Below, one piece after another: positions 1-60,862 of a stretch of 60,862 bases of DNA. A program made the translations under genes and the position numbers. Position 1 is the first letter of the stretch. Every line of letters starts with the position of its first letter. Location of the stretch: the sequence record MW749009.1; one strand, given 5' to 3'. Below the pieces are notes generated by a model, which saw only the letters and a list, made by a program, of their open reading frames with translations, was not told where the DNA came from and made no database searches. The DNA is from Bacillus phage vB_BspP_Dartukuta.

Positions 1-101
1 AGTTGCTTCATTCGGTTGTACTCGTCTATCTGTGGATGACTTGGTGCTATACCGGTGCTACATTTAGCACTTCTCAAATCTGTTTTAGCACCGGTGATGG
101 C

Positions 102-1205
102 ATGGGATCTATTTATACTAGGAAAAATCAGGATGGCACTAACAAGTTCACAGCGCAAATACGCATTAAGAGAAAGCAAAAAGTAGTCTATCAAGAGTCG
201 CAAACTTTTAATAAGAAGACAGTCGCGCAAGCATGGATGAAGAAGCGCGAAGCTGAGCTAGCTCTGCCAGGCGCACTGGACGCTATCATAAACAAGTCTG
301 ACGTAAATATCGCACAGATTATCGAGCGCTATTTAGATGAGTATGAAGCCGTCAGGCCGCTAGGTAGAACCAAGCGAGCAACACTGAAAGCAATCGCAAG
401 CACACCACTAGGCGAGGTCATGGCTGAGGACCTTACATCGCAGATCATAGTCGAGTACGCGCAGCACCGAATGAAGAACGATGGAGTGCAGGCCCAAACT
501 ATCGGCAACGACTTGGCGCACCTTGGCGCAGTGCTATCAGTAGCAAGGCCTGCATGGGGTTATGCGATTGACGGTATCGCAATGAAGGACGCCAGAACAG
601 TGCTAAAAAAGATGAACTTAATATCAAGTAGCAAAGAAAGGGACCGCAGACCAACCATCGAAGAGCTTGAGCTGATACTGAGCCATTATGACGACATGAA
701 AAAAAGGCGCAATCAAGAAATCGATATGTTTAAGATTGTTGGTTTTGCGCTATTCTCGACACGTCGCATGGATGAGATAACTCGGATCAAATGGGATCTG
801 GTAGATGAGGAGGGGCAAAGGGTTCTCATAAAGGATATGAAAAACCCCGGCAATAAATGGGGGAATGATATCTGGTGCTACGTGCCTGATGAGGCTTGGG
901 CAATTATGCAGTCGATACCTAGAAGCAAAGAAGGGCCGTTCCCGTACAATTCAAAATCTATTAGCTCGTCATTCACAAGGGCGTGCAAGTTTCTTCAGAT
1001 TGAAAACCTGCACTTCCATGACTTGAGGCATGAGGGTGTCACTAGATTATTCGAAATGGGCTGGGATATACCCAAAGTTGCTTCGGTATCAGGGCATCGC
1101 GACTGGAACTCAATGCGCAGATATACGCACTTGAGGGGCGTAGGTGATAGGTACGAGGGGTGGGAGTGGGTTAATCGGATGGTAGAAAGTAAGAGTATAC
1201 TCTAA
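102..1205 (+). CDS. int: Tyrosine-type site-specific recombinase (phage integrase)
   Basis: ORF track 3..1205; most plausible ATG at 102 (MGSIYTRK...). C-terminal catalytic signature HFHDLRHEG...GHRDWNSMRRYTHL (R/H-x-x-R...Y of tyrosine recombinases). Confidence 0.9.
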   Translation: MGSIYTRKNQDGTNKFTAQIRIKRKQKVVYQESQTFNKKTVAQAWMKKREAELALPGALDAIINKSDVNIAQIIERYLDEYEAVRPLGRTKRATLKAIASTPLGEVMAEDLTSQIIVEYAQHRMKNDGVQAQTIGNDLAHLGAVLSVARPAWGYAIDGIAMKDARTVLKKMNLISSSKERDRRPTIEELELILSHYDDMKKRRNQEIDMFKIVGFALFSTRRMDEITRIKWDLVDEEGQRVLIKDMKNPGNKWGNDIWCYVPDEAWAIMQSIPRSKEGPFPYNSKSISSSFTRACKFLQIENLHFHDLRHEGVTRLFEMGWDIPKVASVSGHRDWNSMRRYTHLRGVGDRYEGWEWVNRMVESKSIL

Positions 1206-1474
1206 GCGCGTTTTCTACCCCATAGACGTTCATGATCATCCTTAGCTGACTGGTGCTGCTTATCTAGGTAGGCGGCAAGATCACGAACATGCACGCCGCG
1301 CGCGGCCTGCCTGCTGCTATCCATCTGCACTAAAGGCAAGTCTATTTTGCCGTGCGCAATGTTTTGCCGCAGATTCTTTGGTGATAAGTGGCTGAAGTAG
1401 TCAGCACAAACAGTATCAACAGGAATGATTGCCTGGCCGTTGTATTGGGCCATTAGTAAAAACAAAGTATTCAT
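1202..1474 (-). CDS. PrtN-like small DNA-binding protein (possible excision or regulatory factor)
   Basis: 90-aa ORF abutting the int stop; N-terminus MNTLFLLMAQY... matches my memory of the PrtN (pyocin activator) family that often sits beside phage integrases. Not searched. Confidence 0.55.
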   Translation of the reverse strand: MNTLFLLMAQYNGQAIIPVDTVCADYFSHLSPKNLRQNIAHGKIDLPLVQMDSSRQAARGVHVRDLAAYLDKQHQSAKDDHERLWGRKRA

Positions 1475-33066: not shown

Positions 33067-34256
33067 TGGCAGATTTACCACTGATGCCGCTTGCCGGTAT
33101 GAACAATGTAGCTGAAGAAGCAGCCTTAATGCGTGGCGGCGACTCGCCAGCAGTGTTTGCGCGAGACGTTGTGAATATCAATGTGTCGCCAGCAGGAAAG
33201 GCAATGCTAAGAGACTGCGCGCACCGCGTTAGCACGCTGAAGATCAGGGAGCTATGGCAAAGCCCGTTACATCGAGAGTCGTTCGGTGCGGTTGGTGACG
33301 AGTGGGGAAAGGTTGGCGCATTAAGCTGGTCGTTTGATCCTATGGTCAGTATCGGTAACGGTCCAGTGTCGCATGAAGTGTTGAACAACCTTGTTTGCGT
33401 GGCTGGCGACTCCGGCATATTTACCTATGACGGCAGAACTTCTCAAAAGCTAACGATTGAAAACCCACCCGCACCACTCGTGATAACTGGAAGCGGCTCA
33501 ATGGTTGCTGGTATGTACGGCGTGTCGGTGGCATGGCTTAGGGGGGCTACCGAGTCAGCACCTTCTGCAATCGCGTTTACGGACGTTCCTGATGAAGGCG
33601 GTATGCAAATTATTCTGCCGATGTGCCTTGATGACAGCGTGACAGGTGTGCGGCTGTACATGACACGCCAAAACGGTGGAGAGCTTGCAAGAGTCGGTGA
33701 TTACCAGATTGACGCAACAACCGTTGATATTCCGGCTTTGCCTAAACTTGGCGCGCCACCGCAGTTTCTTAATAAGTCGCCAATGCCTACAGGTAAGTAT
33801 CTGAAGTATTGGCGAGGCCGTCTGCTTACTTCCCGCGCCAATGTGCTTCGCTTTTCTGAGTCTATGGCCTATCACTTGCACGATGAGCGCCACGGGTTCG
33901 TACAGATGCCACAGCGCATAACCTTTGTTGAGCCTGTGGATGGCGGGATATGGATTGGCCAAGTCGATCACGTTGCCTTCCTCGAAGGCGCAACACCTGA
34001 CGAGCTTGTCATGCAAAGAAAGACCGCTTGCGCACCAGTGGCCGGTAGTTCAATTCAAGTGCTGGCCGACACGATTGGTGGCGAGCTTTCACAGGGCGGA
34101 TCTGCCACTGTGTTATGGCTCGCAGAGAATGGTTATGTAGCTGGCACAGCAAGCGGCCAAGTGGTTGAAATGCAGACAGGCGTTATGAAAGGTATCACCG
34201 CAGAAAACGGCACTTCTGTAGTGCTGGATCGCAGAGTGCTTACCGCTGTAACCTAG
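33066..34256 (+). CDS. Hypothetical virion protein (396 aa)
   Basis: ORF track; overlapping start (TAATG) with the upstream gene. Confidence 0.45.
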   Translation: MADLPLMPLAGMNNVAEEAALMRGGDSPAVFARDVVNINVSPAGKAMLRDCAHRVSTLKIRELWQSPLHRESFGAVGDEWGKVGALSWSFDPMVSIGNGPVSHEVLNNLVCVAGDSGIFTYDGRTSQKLTIENPPAPLVITGSGSMVAGMYGVSVAWLRGATESAPSAIAFTDVPDEGGMQIILPMCLDDSVTGVRLYMTRQNGGELARVGDYQIDATTVDIPALPKLGAPPQFLNKSPMPTGKYLKYWRGRLLTSRANVLRFSESMAYHLHDERHGFVQMPQRITFVEPVDGGIWIGQVDHVAFLEGATPDELVMQRKTACAPVAGSSIQVLADTIGGELSQGGSATVLWLAENGYVAGTASGQVVEMQTGVMKGITAENGTSVVLDRRVLTAVT

Positions 34257-45600: not shown

Positions 45601-48600
45601 AAACGCAGCGCGTAGAGGCACTAAACTTGCTGATTATGTTCAGCAGTCAGAAATGGGTATTGATCCAATGGTATACCCAATTCTGGAAATGATGCTGAAC
45701 GAGAATGGCAATATCCGTAGTAGCAAATACATCGGCGAACAGCTAACCAATATGGCAAAGTTGGCTTATGATGAAGCCAACTCACCTAGCTCAGATATGT
45801 TTGGCGAAAAACCCAAGCGTACAGCTGAGCAGGTTATTCAAGACGCGCTTACTGGAGTACAAGGTTATGGCCAAATCAATGACGGAAGAGGGCAAGAAAG
45901 TCTGGGGCAGCGAGGGCGGTCAGAACCTGATGCGCAAATGGTTGAAGGGCCAGAAGGCGGACGAGAGCGACCAGCAGACACTAGACAAACTGCACCAACT
46001 CAACCAGAAGCAGAGCAAGAACAACCCGCAGCAGTAGAAAGCAATGCGCCTGAAACATGGCGCAGTAACTACATTCAAGCCGCCAAGATTGCACGCGAAA
46101 AAGGCATTAATCCTAAGCAGCATAAAAAACTCGCTGACTTGGTTGAAGCTATTGATGCGTCAAACACTAAACCTGAAGCTCAAACACAGCTAACAGCACA
46201 ACAGAAGCAGGCTTCAGGCAGTGTAGATGGTGCAAAAGTCCATCTTAACAACAGCATTGACCTAACCAGCGCATTAGCTGCAATCGCACGCGGCGCACAA
46301 TTAAGCACCGAGCCAAACGGTGACGTTATTCTTAGTGGCACCAAGATAATTACGCTTCCAAAGCCGCCAACTTCTATTGATGAAGTTATTGCCCCGTTAG
46401 CCACAGCCTTACTAGAACAAATGCGAGCAGATGGCGTTTCTATGCCTGGCAACCCAGCGGACATGACGCGGGATCAGTTTGCTATTGCCTATCACTTTGC
46501 AAACATAATTCCAGAGTTTGAAATCAGCGGAGCAGATATTGGTGGCGTAGTCCAAGGATCAAGCCGTGGCTTAACAGTAGACTCAGACAAGCTATACGAC
46601 AAGATCATCGAGCAAGCCAAAGAGCAGGCTAAACCAGCCTTGGAGCTTAACCAGCAAACCGAAGAATCCTTAGCTAAAGATGCCAAACGATTAGAGCAGC
46701 TGCAGAAAGAAGAAGCTGCGCAGAAAGTCGCGCAGAAAGCTGCAGAAAGGAAACAGCGTGAGCGTGACGCAGACAAGGCCAGAGCGGACGAAGTGGTTGA
46801 TGACTTCCAGTTGGGGCAGTCTGCAGAAGAAGTAATGTCTGGCATGGGTGATATTTTTGCGACTGAGAGCAAGCCAGCAGATAAAGGCATTGCGTCTCAA
46901 GCCGATGACAGCCATGTCACAGTTGTTGATAACCAATACAACCCAAACCCTACAGAAGCGCAGAAGCAGGCTGGCAACTACAAGAAGGCTCACGTTAAAT
47001 TCCAAGGCCTTGATATCACAGTAGAGAATCCAGTCGGATCAGTGCGCAGTGGCGTAGATCCTGACGGCAATACTTGGTCAAATACTATAAAGCATGATTA
47101 CGGATACATTAAGCGCACTAAGGGCGCTGACGGCGACCATGTTGATGTGTTTATAGGTAAAGATACCGAAAGCGATAAGGTATTTGTAATTGATCAGCCG
47201 CACAAAAACGGTAAGTTCGACGAACACAAAATCATGCTCGGCTTTAAAGACCAGACGCAGGCCGTAGAAGCGTACAAAGGCAACTATCAGAAAGACTGGA
47301 AAGTTGGCTCTGTCACTGAAATGACTGTGGGCGAATTTAAGCAGTGGCTTAGCAATGGTGATACCACCAAACCGGTTGAGCCAGTCGCGAAGCCAGCAGC
47401 GCAAACAAAGCCAAGCCAAGCCATTGAGGACTTTGGTGAGAGGCTGGAAGGCGCACGCAAGGATTACGCCAGCAAACTATCTGACGCTAAAGAGGTAGAC
47501 ATTGCGACTGAGCCACTATCAAAGTCTTGGCCAGAGCCGAATTATCAGAAGTTGATTGACGGAGGAATGCCGCTAGAAACAGCAAGTATTGTTCGTGCTA
47601 TTCGTGATGAGATTCCAGTGAAGCCGCGCGCATCATGGCGACTGAAAGGATGGGTGCGACAAGTAAGCGAAATGCGTGATTTAGCCTTGAATTTGATGGG
47701 GGAAACAGCTACAGCTAAAGTGATTGTAGAGCAGATAAAATCTAATAAATCTTTATCAGACATAGTGAATCGTGCAGACCTGTACTCGGCAGTTGGGCAC
47801 GATAAAAGCCTAAAAGATATTAGTTTAAAACAAAGCTCTTACTCGTTGATTGATGGTGTTAAATACTCGCCACCGAAAGAGCTCTGGACGGTTGAAAGGC
47901 CGATTAAAAGCAGCGTAATAAGCAACATGCCCAGACGTATTGCGACAGCTGAAACAAGAGAGCAAGCGATTGCCAAATTCAAAAATGCGTATGCAACATT
48001 GGACGAAAGCAAACGTGTCAAGAACAAAGCAGTTGAGTTTGGGGTTTATACAGACAGAACCACAAAAGATGTTTTCATTGGCCGGAAGGTTGGCAAAAGT
48101 ATTGCTCGCGTAAAAACTGGATTCGAAACTGCTAAAGATGCAATTGCACACCTAAAGGAAAACTATGCTGCTCTTGAAGAGCGGTTTAACAAGATGAAGG
48201 ATACGCCCGATCATCGTAAGGCTGAAAACTCACCTAGAGTTGGCGTTGATCACCGAAATGGCGCGGATGTAACACCGGAGCAGTTCTCTGATACGTTCGG
48301 GTTCAGAGGGGTGCAGTTCGGTAACTATGTAGAGCAAGGACGTAGGCAGCAGGATCTAAATGAAGCCTATGATGCGCTTATGGACATGGCTGGCGTGTTA
48401 GGTATTCCAGCAAAATCTCTATCTTTAAATGGTGAGCTTGGACTAGCGTTTGGTGCTCGTGGTAAGGGTGGAAAACAAGCAGCTAAAGCGCATTATGAGC
48501 CAGATCAAATTGTTATTAACTTAACTAAGAAAAATGGCGCAGGCAGCCTTGCTCACGAATGGTGGCATGCGCTTGATAACTATTTTGGCCGCGAGCGTGG

Positions 48601-56194: not shown

Positions 56195-56420
56195 GAGAGG
56201 TTCACCACCGAAGCGACCAAGCAAGGGTGGCGAACTGTACGCAGGTTGGTCGACCGGGCGAAAGGACCCCGGCACACCCGAAGGTGTCCCACGCACAGCC
56301 CGCCATAACGCGGGCACAAAAAAACCGCTGATGCGGCGTTGTGCGCCTTTCAAGTTCCGGGCGACCAAACCCGTATCGCTGAATTTGCAGCGACGCGGGA
56401 AAGGTAGCCTGAAAATAGCA
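56195..56420. ncRNA. GC-rich structured non-coding region; candidate regulatory RNA upstream of ant
   Basis: Several short GC stems with 4-nt loops (CCGGG..CCCGG, ACACC-CGAA-GGTGT, GCCCGC-cataac-GCGGGC); only short overlapping ORFs in several frames on both strands; GC visibly higher than the flanks. Strand and family undetermined. Confidence 0.3.
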
Positions 56421-58921: not shown

Positions 58922-59431
58922 GTGAATACAGAACTACGGCAAACACTATTCATGCTGATAGCACTAGCGGTAACAGGACTGGCAGTGTTTGGTATGGGAT
59001 ACGCGCTCGGCAGCAAGGCACCAGCGTTAAAACTCGAAGAGTTAAGAGGCCAAGTAAGTCGGCAGTCAGCGCAGGCAAAAGAAACTCTTGATCAGCTGAC
59101 CAAAGAGCGAGACGAAAAGCAGGCGCTGCTTGATGCCCAGGCAAAACAACAGGAGGAAAACGACAATGCTGCGAAACTTGAAATTGCTCGCCTTGCTGAC
59201 GAGCTTGCAAGTCGGCCTATTCGGGTGCGCGTCATCGCCGCAAGTGGGGCATGTAGTGGTAGCGCCGCTGGTGACACCAGCACCGGTACCGAAACTGGTA
59301 CAGGAAACGATGCCGCGACCAGTGGGCTATTACCAGAACCTAATTCTCGACGCCTTAGAGCAGCAATAGCAGAGGTTGAAACGCTGAGTGCTGCGTACAG
59401 TTCGTGCAGAAAACGATTGTTTAGCCATTGA
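58922..59431 (+). CDS. i-spanin (Rz-like)
   Basis: N-terminal TM helix LFMLIALAVTGLAVFGMGYALG, then coiled-coil periplasmic domain; contains the o-spanin ORF in another frame. Confidence 0.7.
   Translation: MNTELRQTLFMLIALAVTGLAVFGMGYALGSKAPALKLEELRGQVSRQSAQAKETLDQLTKERDEKQALLDAQAKQQEENDNAAKLEIARLADELASRPIRVRVIAASGACSGSAAGDTSTGTETGTGNDAATSGLLPEPNSRRLRAAIAEVETLSAAYSSCRKRLFSH
59166..59369 (+). CDS. o-spanin (Rz1-like lipoprotein), embedded in the i-spanin gene
   Basis: ORF track 59130..59369; ATG at 59166 gives MLRNLKLLALLTSLQVGLFGCASS with an LFGC lipobox and a Pro-rich mature region. Confidence 0.6.
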   Translation: MLRNLKLLALLTSLQVGLFGCASSPQVGHVVVAPLVTPAPVPKLVQETMPRPVGYYQNLILDALEQQ

Positions 59432-59432
59432 C

Positions 59433-60625
59433 ATCCTCCCCGACCTAAAGGACGGGGATTCCTACTGCTAGACGGCCATGCCCGACCGCGAGAATGTTAC
59501 GTGCCGCGTTTACATCGCGATCGTGAGTGACACCGCACTCACACGTCCATTCTCTTATTCCAAGCCCTGCGATACCTTTCGGCCTGCTATCGGGCAGTGC
59601 GCCACAACAGCTACAGGTTTGGGTGGTGTATGCCTCGTTCACTTCCTTAAAAACAATGCCTGCGTGAGCGCATTTATAGTCCAACATTGTTTTTAATTGG
59701 CCCCAGCCAGCATCTAACACTGACTTGGCCATCTTGGTTTTAACGAGTTTTAAACTACTGACATTGCCCACATAGATCTCACCGCAGCGGTTGACCAGCG
59801 TGCGACTGAACTTGTGCAGCGTATCTTTTCTACGGTTAGCAATCTTGGCGTGAATGGTTTTGACTTGAGTTTTATTTCTAGCCCGTTGCGCTATGGCTAA
59901 TTTCTCTTCAAGGCCACGGTAGAAACGACCGGCTTCCAGCTTTGTGCCATCTGAGCAGGTGGCCGTATCCGTTAAGCCTAGATCAATACCGATGCGGTCT
60001 TGTCCGACTGGGATCTCTGACTGCACATCCACCACCACATTAAAGTACCAGCGGCCACGCGCATCCTCATTGAAACTGGCAGTACGAAAACGGTGTTGGC
60101 CAAGGCCGTAGCTGTCCCACACTCCAAAGTATTGGCCGTTGAAATAGACTTGCCCGCTTTTCCACTGTGCTGCACCGGTGTTTACCGGAATCCAGCCTAA
60201 TGAGCGGCGTACGCCGCCTGACTTGCGCCAGTTCAGCCTGGTCTTGTTAAACTGTTTGCGGCGAGTCACGTACTCACCAGCAATGCACTGCAAGGTTTGG
60301 CTGTGCAAGCCCAGTTCCTTGCCTGCACCTTTCGTATAGGGATGCATATCGTAAGCTGATAGAAACACACTGCGCTCTTTGATCGAGCGCTGGCTTAATT
60401 CATTCACAAAGTTCCAGACGAAGTTCACGGCCATGGCTTGCTTGCGCAGCAATGAAATGTGCTTATCCTTGATACGAACTTTGAGTGTTTTGGTGTGCTT
60501 AATCATGCTGTATACAATACCAGTACTTACCCTTAGCGCCAATACTTTAGCAGTCTATTAAGGGGCGGCTTGCGCCGCCCTCGCTATCCATCCTCGCACT
60601 AAAAGTACGAGGTCTTTCGCGAAAC
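59433..60625 (-). mobile_element. IS200/IS605-family TnpB-only insertion element (ends approximate)
   Basis: tnpB flanked by similar subterminal hairpins: CATCC-TCCCCG-loop-CGGGGA at 59433..59458 and CCATC-CTCG-loop-CGAGG at 60588..60612, plus GGGCGGC-ttgc-GCCGCCC at 60563..60580. No tnpA ORF in the window. Confidence 0.6.
59445..60506 (-). CDS. tnpB: TnpB (RuvC-like RNA-guided endonuclease of IS200/IS605-type elements)
   Basis: RuvC-I IGIDLGLTDTATCSDG, zinc finger CSCCG...CECG, RuvC-III THDRDVNAARNI. ORF track 59445..60542 begins on TTG; first ATG at 60506 (MIKHTKTL). Confidence 0.9.
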   Translation of the reverse strand: MIKHTKTLKVRIKDKHISLLRKQAMAVNFVWNFVNELSQRSIKERSVFLSAYDMHPYTKGAGKELGLHSQTLQCIAGEYVTRRKQFNKTRLNWRKSGGVRRSLGWIPVNTGAAQWKSGQVYFNGQYFGVWDSYGLGQHRFRTASFNEDARGRWYFNVVVDVQSEIPVGQDRIGIDLGLTDTATCSDGTKLEAGRFYRGLEEKLAIAQRARNKTQVKTIHAKIANRRKDTLHKFSRTLVNRCGEIYVGNVSSLKLVKTKMAKSVLDAGWGQLKTMLDYKCAHAGIVFKEVNEAYTTQTCSCCGALPDSRPKGIAGLGIREWTCECGVTHDRDVNAARNILAVGHGRLAVGIPVL

Positions 60626-60862
60626 TGATAAAAATTAACATACGAACAATTCTAGAAGCCCTTATCTGGGGCGACTTTATGACTCTAATTACTCAGCGAT
60701 GCTACAAAAGTGCTAAAGCACTGGCTAGGTATTGCGTAAGTCATTGATTTATATTGGATTATTTTAACTGTGGTGCCGATCCATCATAGGGGCCACCGCA
60801 AACACCGAAGCCCAGACCTGCGGGACTTAGGCAGTAACTGCGAGGGATTCGGTGCATTTTCA

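What the first reader, a model, noticed from the sequence alone, without database searches (positions are those of the whole stretch)
43..95. Nested inverted and direct repeats immediately upstream of the integrase start
ACCGGTGCTA (51..60) and TAGCACCGGT (86..95) form a 10-bp inverted repeat, with an inner palindrome GTGCTA/TAGCAC (55..70) and a GGTGCTA direct repeat (43..49, 54..60). Being at the window edge next to int, they could be integrase or regulator binding sites or part of the attachment region.
Basis: seen in the sequence. Interest (0 to 1): 0.2.

Follow-up and report, generated by a model that had tools for sequence, protein, structure and literature searches.

The report
Integrase arm sites of a dusA phage
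The repeats just upstream of the integrase gene are four copies of a short motif that most likely serve as docking sites for the phage's own integrase within its attachment site; this is a known kind of element, but related phages vary the motif in step with three integrase residues.

Summary
Four copies of GTGCTA lie at 44-91 (two forward, two reverse; spacings 11, 9 and 21 bp), where about 0.05 such clusters are expected per 60.8 kb.

The window is a circularly permuted phage genome. Its end joins its start, and the junction region is the attachment site (attP) of a dusA-specific tyrosine integrase. The core CCATCAT (60781) lies 183 nt upstream of the int ATG, against 175-191 nt in 80 relatives. 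The repeats form the int-proximal (P') arm. The far (P) arm has the same motif at 60699-60716, 82 nt from the core, as in 35 other elements.

About 120 relatives keep the architecture but vary the half-site. Base 4, base 1 and base 6 track Int residues 5, 23 and 17 with no exception (94 elements, 18 co-located switches on a catalytic-domain tree, 24/25 out of sample). The Int N-terminus models as a three-stranded sheet plus helix.

Best reading: arm-type Int-binding sites that also cover a putative int promoter, giving self-repression as shown for KplE1 IntS. It is a new member of a known kind; binding and the promoter remain untested.

The parts
44..50 (+).
   Evidence: It is conserved at this position in the relatives L084, L088, L090 and L091. 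In L085-L087, L089 and L092-L094 it lies about 40 bp further upstream.
55..61 (+). P' arm half-site 2, GTGCTAC; left half of the palindrome
   Evidence: A half-site is present at the equivalent position in 94 of 95 related elements.
64..70 (-). P' arm half-site 3 (TTAGCAC on the + strand, GTGCTAA on the - strand); right half of the palindrome
   Evidence: The palindrome gap is 2 nt in the window's clade and 3 nt in 82 other elements.
85..91 (-). P' arm half-site 4 (TTAGCAC on the + strand); it ends 10 nt before the int ATG and abuts the Shine-Dalgarno sequence
   Evidence: It starts 21 bp after half-site 3, and this 21-bp spacing holds in 93 of 94 elements.
36..64 (+). Putative int promoter: -35 ATGACT (36-41), 17-nt spacer, extended -10 TGcTACATT (56-64). 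This is inferred only.
   Evidence: Read from the sequence. TGnTAnnnT occurs on the + strand in 20 of 25 distinct palindromes, against 13 of 25 on the - strand. The consensus promoter scan did not report it.
102..1205 (+). int, a dusA-specific tyrosine integrase of 367 aa. Residues 1-72 form the candidate arm-binding domain.
   Evidence: Pfam Phage_integrase, E = 3.4e-16. The AlphaFold2 model of residues 1-72 has strands 3-8, 14-24 and 27-36 and a helix at 39-53.
60779..60796 (+). att core region, ATCCATCATAGGGGCCAC. This is the reverse complement of the dusA 5' coding sequence (...APMMD).
   Evidence: It lies 183 nt upstream of the int ATG across the circular junction, against 175-191 nt in relatives.
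60699..60722 (+). P arm: direct half-sites ATGCTAC (60699-60705) and GTGCTAA (60710-60716), 11 bp apart, plus a partial inverted copy (AGTGCT-AA-AGCACT, 60709-60722)
   Evidence: The GTGCTA-n5-GTGCTAaaGCAC arrangement is conserved in 8 close relatives whose flanking DNA is unrelated. Thirty-five further P arms have the same layout.
60737..60749 (+). IHF-like site TAAGTCATTGATT (matches YAANNNNTTGATW), lying between the P-arm sites and the core
   Evidence: It is one of only 5 matches in the window. It is conserved in 6-7 of 8 close relatives (read by eye).
60788..60862 (-). Phage-supplied replacement 5' end of dusA. It continues into window positions 1-35 across the circular junction.
   Evidence: The reverse strand reads ...VPQVWASVFAVAPMMD and then breaks at the core. 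Replacement of the dusA 5' end by the element is described for this integrase family (PMC4482086).
1202..1474 (-). PrtN-like gene convergent with int; candidate excision factor. Its role is not tested.
   Evidence: Pfam PyocinActivator, E = 6.2e-30. A homologue is present in 83 of 94 loci, mostly just downstream of int.

Best explanation
The repeats are four copies of a 7-8 bp half-site, (G/A)GTGCTA(A/C/T). They make up the int-proximal (P') arm of attP, the attachment site of a temperate phage that integrates into the 5' end of the host gene dusA.

Proposed mechanism:
1. The integrase has two DNA-binding parts. Its C-terminal domains bind the crossover core in dusA.
2. Its small N-terminal beta-sheet domain binds these arm sites, and two or three matching sites on the other (P) arm.
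3. An IHF-type bend between arm and core lets one integrase molecule bridge the two, which assembles the recombination complex.
4. The P' sites also cover the putative int promoter, the transcription start and the ribosome-binding region. Integrase bound there should therefore repress its own synthesis.

Shown here: the conservation, the placement on both arms, and the covariation with Int N-terminal residues. Inferred: physical binding by Int, the promoter, and the self-repression.
For: Attachment-site context:
- The window is circularly permuted. blastn alignments to four independent contigs cross its end-to-start junction without a break.
- The core CCATCAT at 60781 then lies 183 nt from the int ATG, against 175-191 nt in relatives. 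About 75 of 83 relatives sit directly beside a genuine dusA gene.

Conservation:
- 94 of 95 related elements have a palindrome plus a third half-site exactly 21 bp further on. The window's clade always has a fourth copy as well.

Both arms:
- The window's P arm has the same motif 82 nt from the core.
- 35 further P arms have two direct half-sites. Spacing is 11 bp in 34 of them, and the first copy starts 80-83 nt from the core in 32.
- In five elements with both arms in hand, the arm types agree: the window, P. proteolytica L060 with the arm left of L010, L163/L164, L191/L192 and L175/L176. In P. proteolytica the P arm matches its own element's Int, not the adjacent int.

Covariation with Int:
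- Base 4 = G goes with residue 5 = R (34/34). Base 4 = C goes with T/Y/I (60/60).
- Base 1 = G goes with residue 23 = K/R (33/33), T with M/N/S/H (52/52), and C with F (9/9).
- Base 6 = G goes with residue 17 = D/N (4/4).
- On a catalytic-domain tree these features switch 11, 5 and 2 times. The joint states also change 11, 5 and 2 times, so base and residue always change on the same branch.
- The rule held for 24 of 25 new elements.
- In a scan of all Int columns, the best predictors all fall within residues 2-26. No column of the PrtN-like protein is as good.

Domain:
- The AlphaFold2 model of residues 1-72 (pLDDT 78) is a three-stranded sheet plus helix.
- 5 of 33 family members weakly hit Pfam Arm-DNA-bind_4, best E = 0.0049.

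Precedent:
- In KplE1, an IntS arm-type site overlaps the -10 box of the intS promoter and IntS represses its own gene (PMC2951348).
Against: - No binding was measured.
- The int 5' end and the P' sites lie within 150 bp of each other. Co-inheritance of a swapped module could therefore produce part of the covariation without any physical contact.
- The fold matches are weak (Z no higher than 5.6, among unrelated hits). Foldseek and the PDB sequence searches found nothing significant. Pfam does not recognise the window's own N-terminus.
- The promoter is only a 4/6 + 4/6 consensus match, and the promoter scan did not call it.
- 62 of the 97 non-dusA cores in viral contigs lacked a recognisable P-arm pair. 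They were not examined and may belong to other integrase lineages.
Confidence: 0.72

Rival explanations
1. The repeats are operators for a different phage-encoded DNA-binding protein, such as the PrtN-like protein next to int (a possible excision factor) or a repressor. In this reading that protein controls int, and perhaps the phage-supplied dusA promoter.
For: A PrtN-like gene accompanies int in 83 of 94 loci. Its best alignment column predicts half-site base 4 at 0.91. The palindrome geometry would suit a dimeric regulator. In KplE1, the excision factor TorI also binds the attL/promoter region.
Against: - No PrtN-like column matches the perfect association seen for Int residues 5 and 17, and its best column for base 1 scores only 0.61.
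- The motif does not cluster anywhere else in the window, so it is not shared with an immunity region.
- The sites lie on both arms at fixed distances from the core, which is the pattern expected of integrase arm sites.
- P. aeruginosa PrtN is reported to bind a different P-box motif; this is from background knowledge and was not tested here.
Confidence: 0.13
2. The inverted repeat acts as an RNA hairpin in the int leader. The hairpin hides the ribosome-binding site and the AUG on transcripts that read in from upstream, for example late transcripts crossing attP. Transcripts that start inside the repeat would remain translatable.
For: As RNA, window 40-110 folds at -26 kcal/mol, with z = -3.9 and 0 of 200 shuffles folding as well. 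The stem pairs 43-60 with 86-103, which covers the Shine-Dalgarno sequence and the AUG. The lysis genes upstream are on the same strand.
Against: - Ten of 13 relatives fold no better than shuffles (z > -1.6), and the predicted pairings differ between them.
- In most relatives the complementarity does not extend beyond the protein-type half-site.
- The P arm, and the P' arm of L176, carry direct repeats, which cannot pair.
- This idea does not explain the covariation with Int residues.
- It could still be an added layer in the window's own subclade.
Confidence: 0.08
3. The palindrome is mainly the phage-supplied promoter that drives the rebuilt dusA gene after integration, or a bidirectional promoter. 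In this reading the repeat structure is secondary.
For: The element must supply a new dusA 5' end, and probably a promoter; putative -10 and -35 boxes were reported for this integrase family (PMC4482086). The palindrome also reads TGnTAnnnT on the minus strand in 13 of 25 distinct versions.
Against: - The -10-like pattern is better kept on the int strand (20 of 25).
- A promoter does not explain three or four phased copies, the matching copies on the far arm, or the clade-specific half-site changes that track Int residues.
- This reading can coexist with the main explanation.
Confidence: 0.05
4. The repeats are a chance clustering of a short word.
For: None, beyond the shortness of the motif.
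Against: The cluster statistics and the conservation in about 120 elements both argue against chance.
Confidence: 0.01

Closest known systems
Arm-type sites of lambda-type (heterobivalent) tyrosine integrases: attP arms P1/P2 and P'1-P'3 of lambda, with equivalents in HK022, P2, L5 and Tn916
   Same: Short repeats distinct from the core lie on both sides of it, at fixed distances. The int gene is adjacent to the P' arm. A bending-protein site lies between arm and core. The integrase has a separate small N-terminal beta-sheet domain.
   Different: The site sequence is different. The P' arm mixes direct and inverted copies (two forward, two reverse), whereas lambda has three direct copies. The target is the 5' end of a protein-coding gene. 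Binding has not been shown here.
KplE1 IntS/attL: an integrase promoter embedded in the attachment site (PMC2951348)
   Same: int is transcribed away from the att site. Arm-type sites overlap the -10 box and the leader region. The expected outcome is negative autoregulation of int.
   Different: KplE1 integrates at a tRNA gene and its promoter was mapped experimentally. Here the promoter is only a consensus match, and int is divergent from the target gene dusA.
dusA-specific integrases (DAIs) of prophages and genomic islands (PMC4482086)
   Same: The target is the same (the 5' end of dusA). The semi-conserved core is the same. The element supplies a replacement dusA 5' end. The integrase is 57-67% identical to the Pseudomonas members.
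   Different: That paper defines the core repeats only and contains no mention of arm-type sites or inverted repeats. The arm architecture and its specificity types are added here. The window's clade (GTGCTA type, Y5/K23) is known otherwise only from metagenome contigs.
AP2/ERF-type three-stranded-sheet DNA-binding domains and Pfam Arm-DNA-bind_4 (PF14657)
   Same: The predicted fold is three antiparallel strands plus a helix. The specificity-linked residues lie on strands beta-1 and beta-2.

Membership tests
Lambda-type heterobivalent tyrosine integrase attP with arm-type sites | Tyrosine recombinase catalytic domain | tested here: met
   Pfam Phage_integrase, E = 3.4e-16 and 59.9 bits against a cut-off of 27.1.
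Lambda-type heterobivalent tyrosine integrase attP with arm-type sites | Separate N-terminal arm-binding domain (three-stranded beta-sheet plus helix) | tested here: inconclusive
Lambda-type heterobivalent tyrosine integrase attP with arm-type sites | Repeated sites, different from the core sequence, on both arms at fixed distances from the core | tested here: met
   P' sites are at 44-91 and P sites at 60699-60722, either side of the core at 60781. The layout is stereotyped in 94 P' arms and 35 P arms.
Lambda-type heterobivalent tyrosine integrase attP with arm-type sites | Arm sites match the specificity of the element's own integrase | tested here: met
   The residue-to-base associations have no exception in 94 elements and hold in 24 of 25 out of sample. 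In the P. proteolytica tandem array the P-arm type follows its own element. This evidence is correlative, and linkage is a caveat.
Lambda-type heterobivalent tyrosine integrase attP with arm-type sites | Site for a DNA-bending protein between arm and core | tested here: inconclusive
   An exact IHF-type consensus lies at 60737-60749, one of 5 in the window, and is kept in most close relatives. No equivalent was identified on the P' side.
Lambda-type heterobivalent tyrosine integrase attP with arm-type sites | Physical binding of the integrase N-domain to the arm sites | not testable with these tools
   This needs a gel-shift or footprinting experiment.
dusA-specific integrases (DAI) | Integration into the 5' end of dusA | tested here: met
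   About 75 of 83 relatives, and the close relatives L086 and L089, abut a genuine dusA gene (MMDWTDRHCRFF...; L089 has Pfam Dus). The window itself is in the excised, circular form.
dusA-specific integrases (DAI) | Semi-conserved att core within dusA, with the element supplying a new dusA 5' end | tested here: met
   The core ATCCATCATAGGGGCCAC is at 60779-60796. The reverse strand encodes ...SVFAVAPMMD up to the core. The family definition is in PMC4482086.
Self-repressed integrase genes with the promoter inside the att region (KplE1 type) | int is transcribed away from the att core, so its promoter must lie within the arm | tested here: met
   Only 183 nt separate the core from the int ATG, and int points away from the core.
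Self-repressed integrase genes with the promoter inside the att region (KplE1 type) | An arm-type site overlaps the -10 box of the int promoter | tested here: inconclusive
   TGcTACATT (56-64) overlaps half-site 2. The TGnTAnnnT pattern is kept in 20 of 25 distinct palindromes. The promoter scan did not call it, and no transcription start is known.
Self-repressed integrase genes with the promoter inside the att region (KplE1 type) | Integrase lowers transcription of its own gene | not testable with these tools
   This needs a reporter fusion or RT-qPCR with and without Int.

The most novel reading that the evidence does not exclude
The dusA integrases may carry a simple, naturally re-programmed recognition code in their N-terminal arm-binding domain:
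- Residue 5 (R versus T/Y) reads half-site base 4 (G versus C).
- Residue 23 (K/R versus M/N/S/H versus F) reads base 1 (G versus T versus C or any base).
- Residue 17 (T versus D/N) reads base 6 (A versus G).

This divergence in arm specificity would create mutually orthogonal recombination modules that all share one chromosomal target. Different dusA prophages could then sit in tandem without cross-excising each other. In five loci a GCTAC-type int lies next to a GGTAC-type far arm that belongs to a neighbouring element.
Probability: 0.35. Interest if true: 0.6.

Novelty: new member of a known kind. Interest (0 to 1): 0.4.

Why it matters
For this window, the finding fixes the map. The record is a circular phage genome whose attachment site is split across its two ends. 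The phage targets dusA. The repeats are a working part of its integration machinery, not a stray palindrome.

For the integrase family, only the core sites had been described. The arms are laid out here for about 120 elements.

If the residue-to-base rule reflects direct contact, it offers two things:
- a small natural set of integrases that share one target but differ in arm specificity, which is useful for building orthogonal integration systems;
- a possible explanation of how several prophages can share one insertion site.

Tried and rejected
- **Source record.** Megablast of the first 3 kb against 50,697 phage records found nothing. No genome in the species-representative set holds the source; the best integrase identity there was 67%.
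- **Promoter and terminator scan.** The consensus scan of 1-1600 found no promoter near the repeats.
- **Sequence searches on the N-terminus.** Pfam on the window's own residues 1-72 and profile searches against PDB sequences gave nothing useful.
- **Foldseek.** The N-domain model had no significant match in the PDB.
- **Site calling.** My first two automatic site callers mis-registered the window's clade, because its palindrome gap is 2 nt rather than 3. Anchoring on NTG[C/G]T[A/G]N plus the 21-bp spacing fixed this.
- **RNA hairpin.** The idea looked strong in the window but failed the conservation test.
- **Immunity-type operator.** Rejected because the motif clusters nowhere else in the window.
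- **Prophage with a missing attL.** I first read the window that way. I rejected this once the 183-nt spacing and the unbroken alignments across the junction showed circular permutation.
- **Unexamined cores.** 62 of the 97 non-dusA core matches in viral contigs had no recognisable P-arm pair and were not followed up.

Full report
**1. The observation**

The sequence at 40-101 reads cttGGTGCTAtaccGGTGCTAcatTTAGCACttctcaaatctgttTTAGCACCggtgatggc, followed by the int ATG at 102.
- the perfect 10-bp inverted repeat at 51-60 and 86-95;
- GTGCTA/TAGCAC at 55-60 and 65-70;
- GGTGCTA at 43-49 and 54-60, 11 bp apart.

It also shows TTTAGCAC at 63-70 and 84-91, 21 bp apart.

All of these are views of one thing: four copies of a half-site. 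Two are on the + strand (44-50 and 55-61) and two on the - strand (64-70 and 85-91).

GTGCTA is not over-represented in the window as a whole (32 copies against 37 expected). Four copies within 48 nt is therefore a local event. The Poisson probability for a given span is 1.7e-8. An unbiased scan of all 6-mers finds only one other such cluster in 60.8 kb, where simulations give 0.05.

**2. Where the repeats sit**

The downstream gene (102-1205) is a tyrosine integrase. Three viral contigs and 80 genomes, nearly all Pseudomonas, encode integrases 57-67% identical to it. In about 75 of these 83 loci the DNA upstream of int is a genuine dusA gene on the opposite strand (reverse strand MMDWTDRHCRFF...). 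It is joined at a conserved core, CCATCAT, 175-191 nt from the int ATG. This identifies the family of dusA-specific integrases. These insert into the 5' end of dusA and supply a replacement 5' end (PMC4482086).

The window has the same core, but at its far end (60781-60787). There the reverse strand reads ...SVFAVAPMMD and then breaks off. Joining the window's end to its start puts the core 82 + 101 = 183 nt from the ATG. blastn alignments to four independent metagenome contigs (L084, L087, L088, L090) run across that junction without a break.

The window is therefore a circular permutation of a phage genome. Its attP spans about 60690-60862 plus 1-101.

**3. Conservation of the architecture**

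When the 120 nt upstream of the ATG are lined up, every relative shows the same design. There is a palindrome made of two half-sites, then a third half-site in the orientation of the second.

After anchoring on the pattern NTG[C/G]T[A/G]N, 94 of 95 elements have all three sites. The second and third are exactly 21 bp apart in 93 of 94. The palindrome gap is 3 nt in 82 elements and 2 nt in the 12 of the window's clade.

Ten much closer integrases (78-95% identity), all from metagenomes, keep the window's GTGCTA sites and always have a fourth, direct copy. That copy lies 11 bp upstream of the palindrome in one group (as in the window) and about 40 bp upstream in the other.

Only the half-site is.

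**4. The other arm**

They do.

The window has ATGCTAC and GTGCTAA at 60699 and 60710, 11 bp apart. A partial inverted copy follows, and the first site starts 82 nt from the core. Eight close relatives keep GTGCTA-n5-GTGCTAaaGCAC at this position although the surrounding DNA is unrelated.

A scan of viral contigs for the core found 35 more far arms with two direct half-sites. Spacing is 11 bp in 34, and the first copy starts 80-83 nt from the core in 32.

Where both arms of one element are known, the types agree. The cases are the window, L163/L164, L191/L192 and L175/L176, and a tandem pair in P. proteolytica. In that pair, the arm lying just left of a TTGCTAC-type int is GTGGTAC-type. This matches the Int of the upstream element (L060) to which the arm belongs.

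Elsewhere in the window the motif forms no comparable cluster; there is only one loose opposite-strand pair at 33204/33229. An exact IHF-type consensus lies between the far-arm sites and the core (60737-60749). It is one of five in the window.

**5. Which protein reads the sites**

The half-site differs between clades (TTGCTAC, TTGCTGA, GTGGTAC, TTGGTAC, CTGGTAC, GTGCTAA/C), and the copies within an element change together. These changes track three residues of the integrase N-terminus with no exception in 94 elements:

| Half-site base | Int residue | Association |
|---|---|---|
| Base 4 | Residue 5 | G with R (34/34); C with T/Y/I (60/60) |
| Base 1 | Residue 23 | G with K/R (33/33); T with M/N/S/H (52/52); C with F (9/9) |
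| Base 6 | Residue 17 | G with D/N (4/4) |

On a tree built from the catalytic domain only, these features change 11, 5 and 2 times. The joint states also change 11, 5 and 2 times, so base and residue always switch on the same branch. Examples:
- L075 (K, GTG) is sister to L074 (F, CTG).
- L029 (R, GGTAC) is sister to L037 (T, GCTAC).
- L023 differs from L001 in its first 31 residues only by T17N and I20V, and has TTGCTGA instead of TTGCTAC.

A scan of all roughly 366 Int columns puts the best predictors of each base within residues 2-26. The PrtN-like protein encoded next to int in 83 of 94 loci has no comparably good column. The rule predicted the sites of 24 of 25 newly recovered elements. 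The 25th has the predicted sequence in a different orientation.

Residues 1-72 model as three antiparallel strands (3-8, 14-24, 27-36) plus a helix. Residues 5/7 and 17/19/21/23 alternate along strands 1 and 2. The three variable positions should therefore share a face with the invariant R7, Q19 and R21; this is an inference from strand geometry.

One caveat applies to all of this. The int 5' end and the P' sites are less than 150 bp apart, so recombination that moves them together could mimic functional coupling.

**6. Likely mechanism**

The repeats are best read as arm-type integrase sites of attP. They would let the integrase bridge arm and core during integration into, and excision from, dusA.

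They also cover a plausible int promoter:
- -35 ATGACT at 36-41;
- extended -10 TGcTACATT at 56-64, which overlaps half-site 2;
- half-site 3 at the expected transcription start;
- half-site 4 against the Shine-Dalgarno sequence GGTGA (93-97).

The pattern TGnTAnnnT is kept on the int strand in 20 of 25 distinct palindromes and on the other strand in 13 of 25. Integrase bound here should shut down its own gene, as shown experimentally for KplE1 IntS, where the P'1 site overlaps the -10 box (PMC2951348). The promoter and the repression are inferences.

**7. Rivals**

- **A separate regulator.** This is possible, but the covariation scan and the two-arm layout disfavour it.
- **An RNA hairpin hiding the ribosome site.** It is strong in the window (-26 kcal/mol, z = -3.9). 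However, 10 of 13 relatives fold no better than shuffles and pair differently, and direct repeats on the far arm cannot pair. It may be an extra layer in this subclade.
- **A phage-supplied dusA promoter.** It may coexist with the arm sites but does not explain the repeats.
- **Chance.** Excluded.

**8. Novelty**

Arm-type sites, and their overlap with an int promoter, are well known. For dusA-specific integrases the founding paper describes only the core repeats. No paper in the searchable library links dusA integrases with arm-type sites.

The finding is therefore a new member of a known kind. The added points of interest are the apparent three-position recognition rule and the coexistence of different arm types at one chromosomal target.

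Noticed in passing
window 59428-60627: A 1,200-bp insertion relative to the close relative L087. It carries a 365-aa TnpB-type ORF (59445-60542, minus strand; Pfam OrfB_IS605 and Cas12f1-like_TNB) and a GC-rich hairpin near 60562-60580. It looks like a TnpB-only IS200/IS605-type element that landed between the lysis genes and the P arm, about 70 nt outside the arm sites.
   Followed up: partly
window 56223-56407 (minus strand): Rfam matches above the gathering score to C4 antisense RNA, isrK and the c4 a1/b1 targets. This suggests a P1/P7-type antisense immunity module late in the genome.
   Followed up: no
window 9883-9959 (minus strand): A phage-borne tRNA-Arg with anticodon TCT, found by both ARAGORN and Rfam.
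   Followed up: no
window 46700-46750: GCAGAAAG occurs four times within 48 nt. This is the only other 6-mer cluster of this strength in the window. It lies in a stretch that would encode an Ala/Glu/Lys-rich repeat and looks like an ordinary coding repeat.
   Followed up: partly
L010 and L060 (P. proteolytica contig NZ_VFEV01000002); also L008, L014, L081, L162: dusA prophages sit in tandem. In each of these loci a TTGCTAC-type int lies next to a far arm of the xTGGTAC type, which belongs to a neighbouring element. Elements of different arm specificity may therefore coexist at one attB. I detected the tandem cases by this mismatch, so no frequency can be given.
   Followed up: partly
L087, compared with the window and L085: L087 has the window's P arm, nearly identical up to the core, joined to the P' arm and int of L085. 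It looks like a natural recombinant with the crossover at the att core.
   Followed up: partly
P' arms of the Pseudomonas relatives, about -60 to -110 from the int ATG (e.g. L050, L058): T-tracts recur every 10-11 bp (GCGTTTTnnGGGCGTTTTCAGGCGTTTTT) between the core and the palindrome. This suggests intrinsically bent DNA or sites for another protein. The window's clade lacks them.
   Followed up: no
Elements with Int F23 (e.g. L052, L069, L163, L191): The first base of the half-site is heterogeneous (C, T or G) among the copies within one element. Elements with K/R23 have G in all copies. This fits a residue that no longer discriminates that base.
   Followed up: partly
L176 (IMGVR_UViG_3300028612_001997): A more divergent dusA integrase (MATIRKRRKKDGSFSYLVQIRIARRG) has three P' half-sites, all in direct orientation. 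The orientation of the sites is therefore not fixed across the wider family.
   Followed up: no
window 1202-1474 (minus strand) and 83 of 94 related loci: A PrtN-like (Pfam PyocinActivator) gene overlaps the int stop codon and is convergent with int. It is conserved across the family, which makes it a candidate excision factor.
   Followed up: partly
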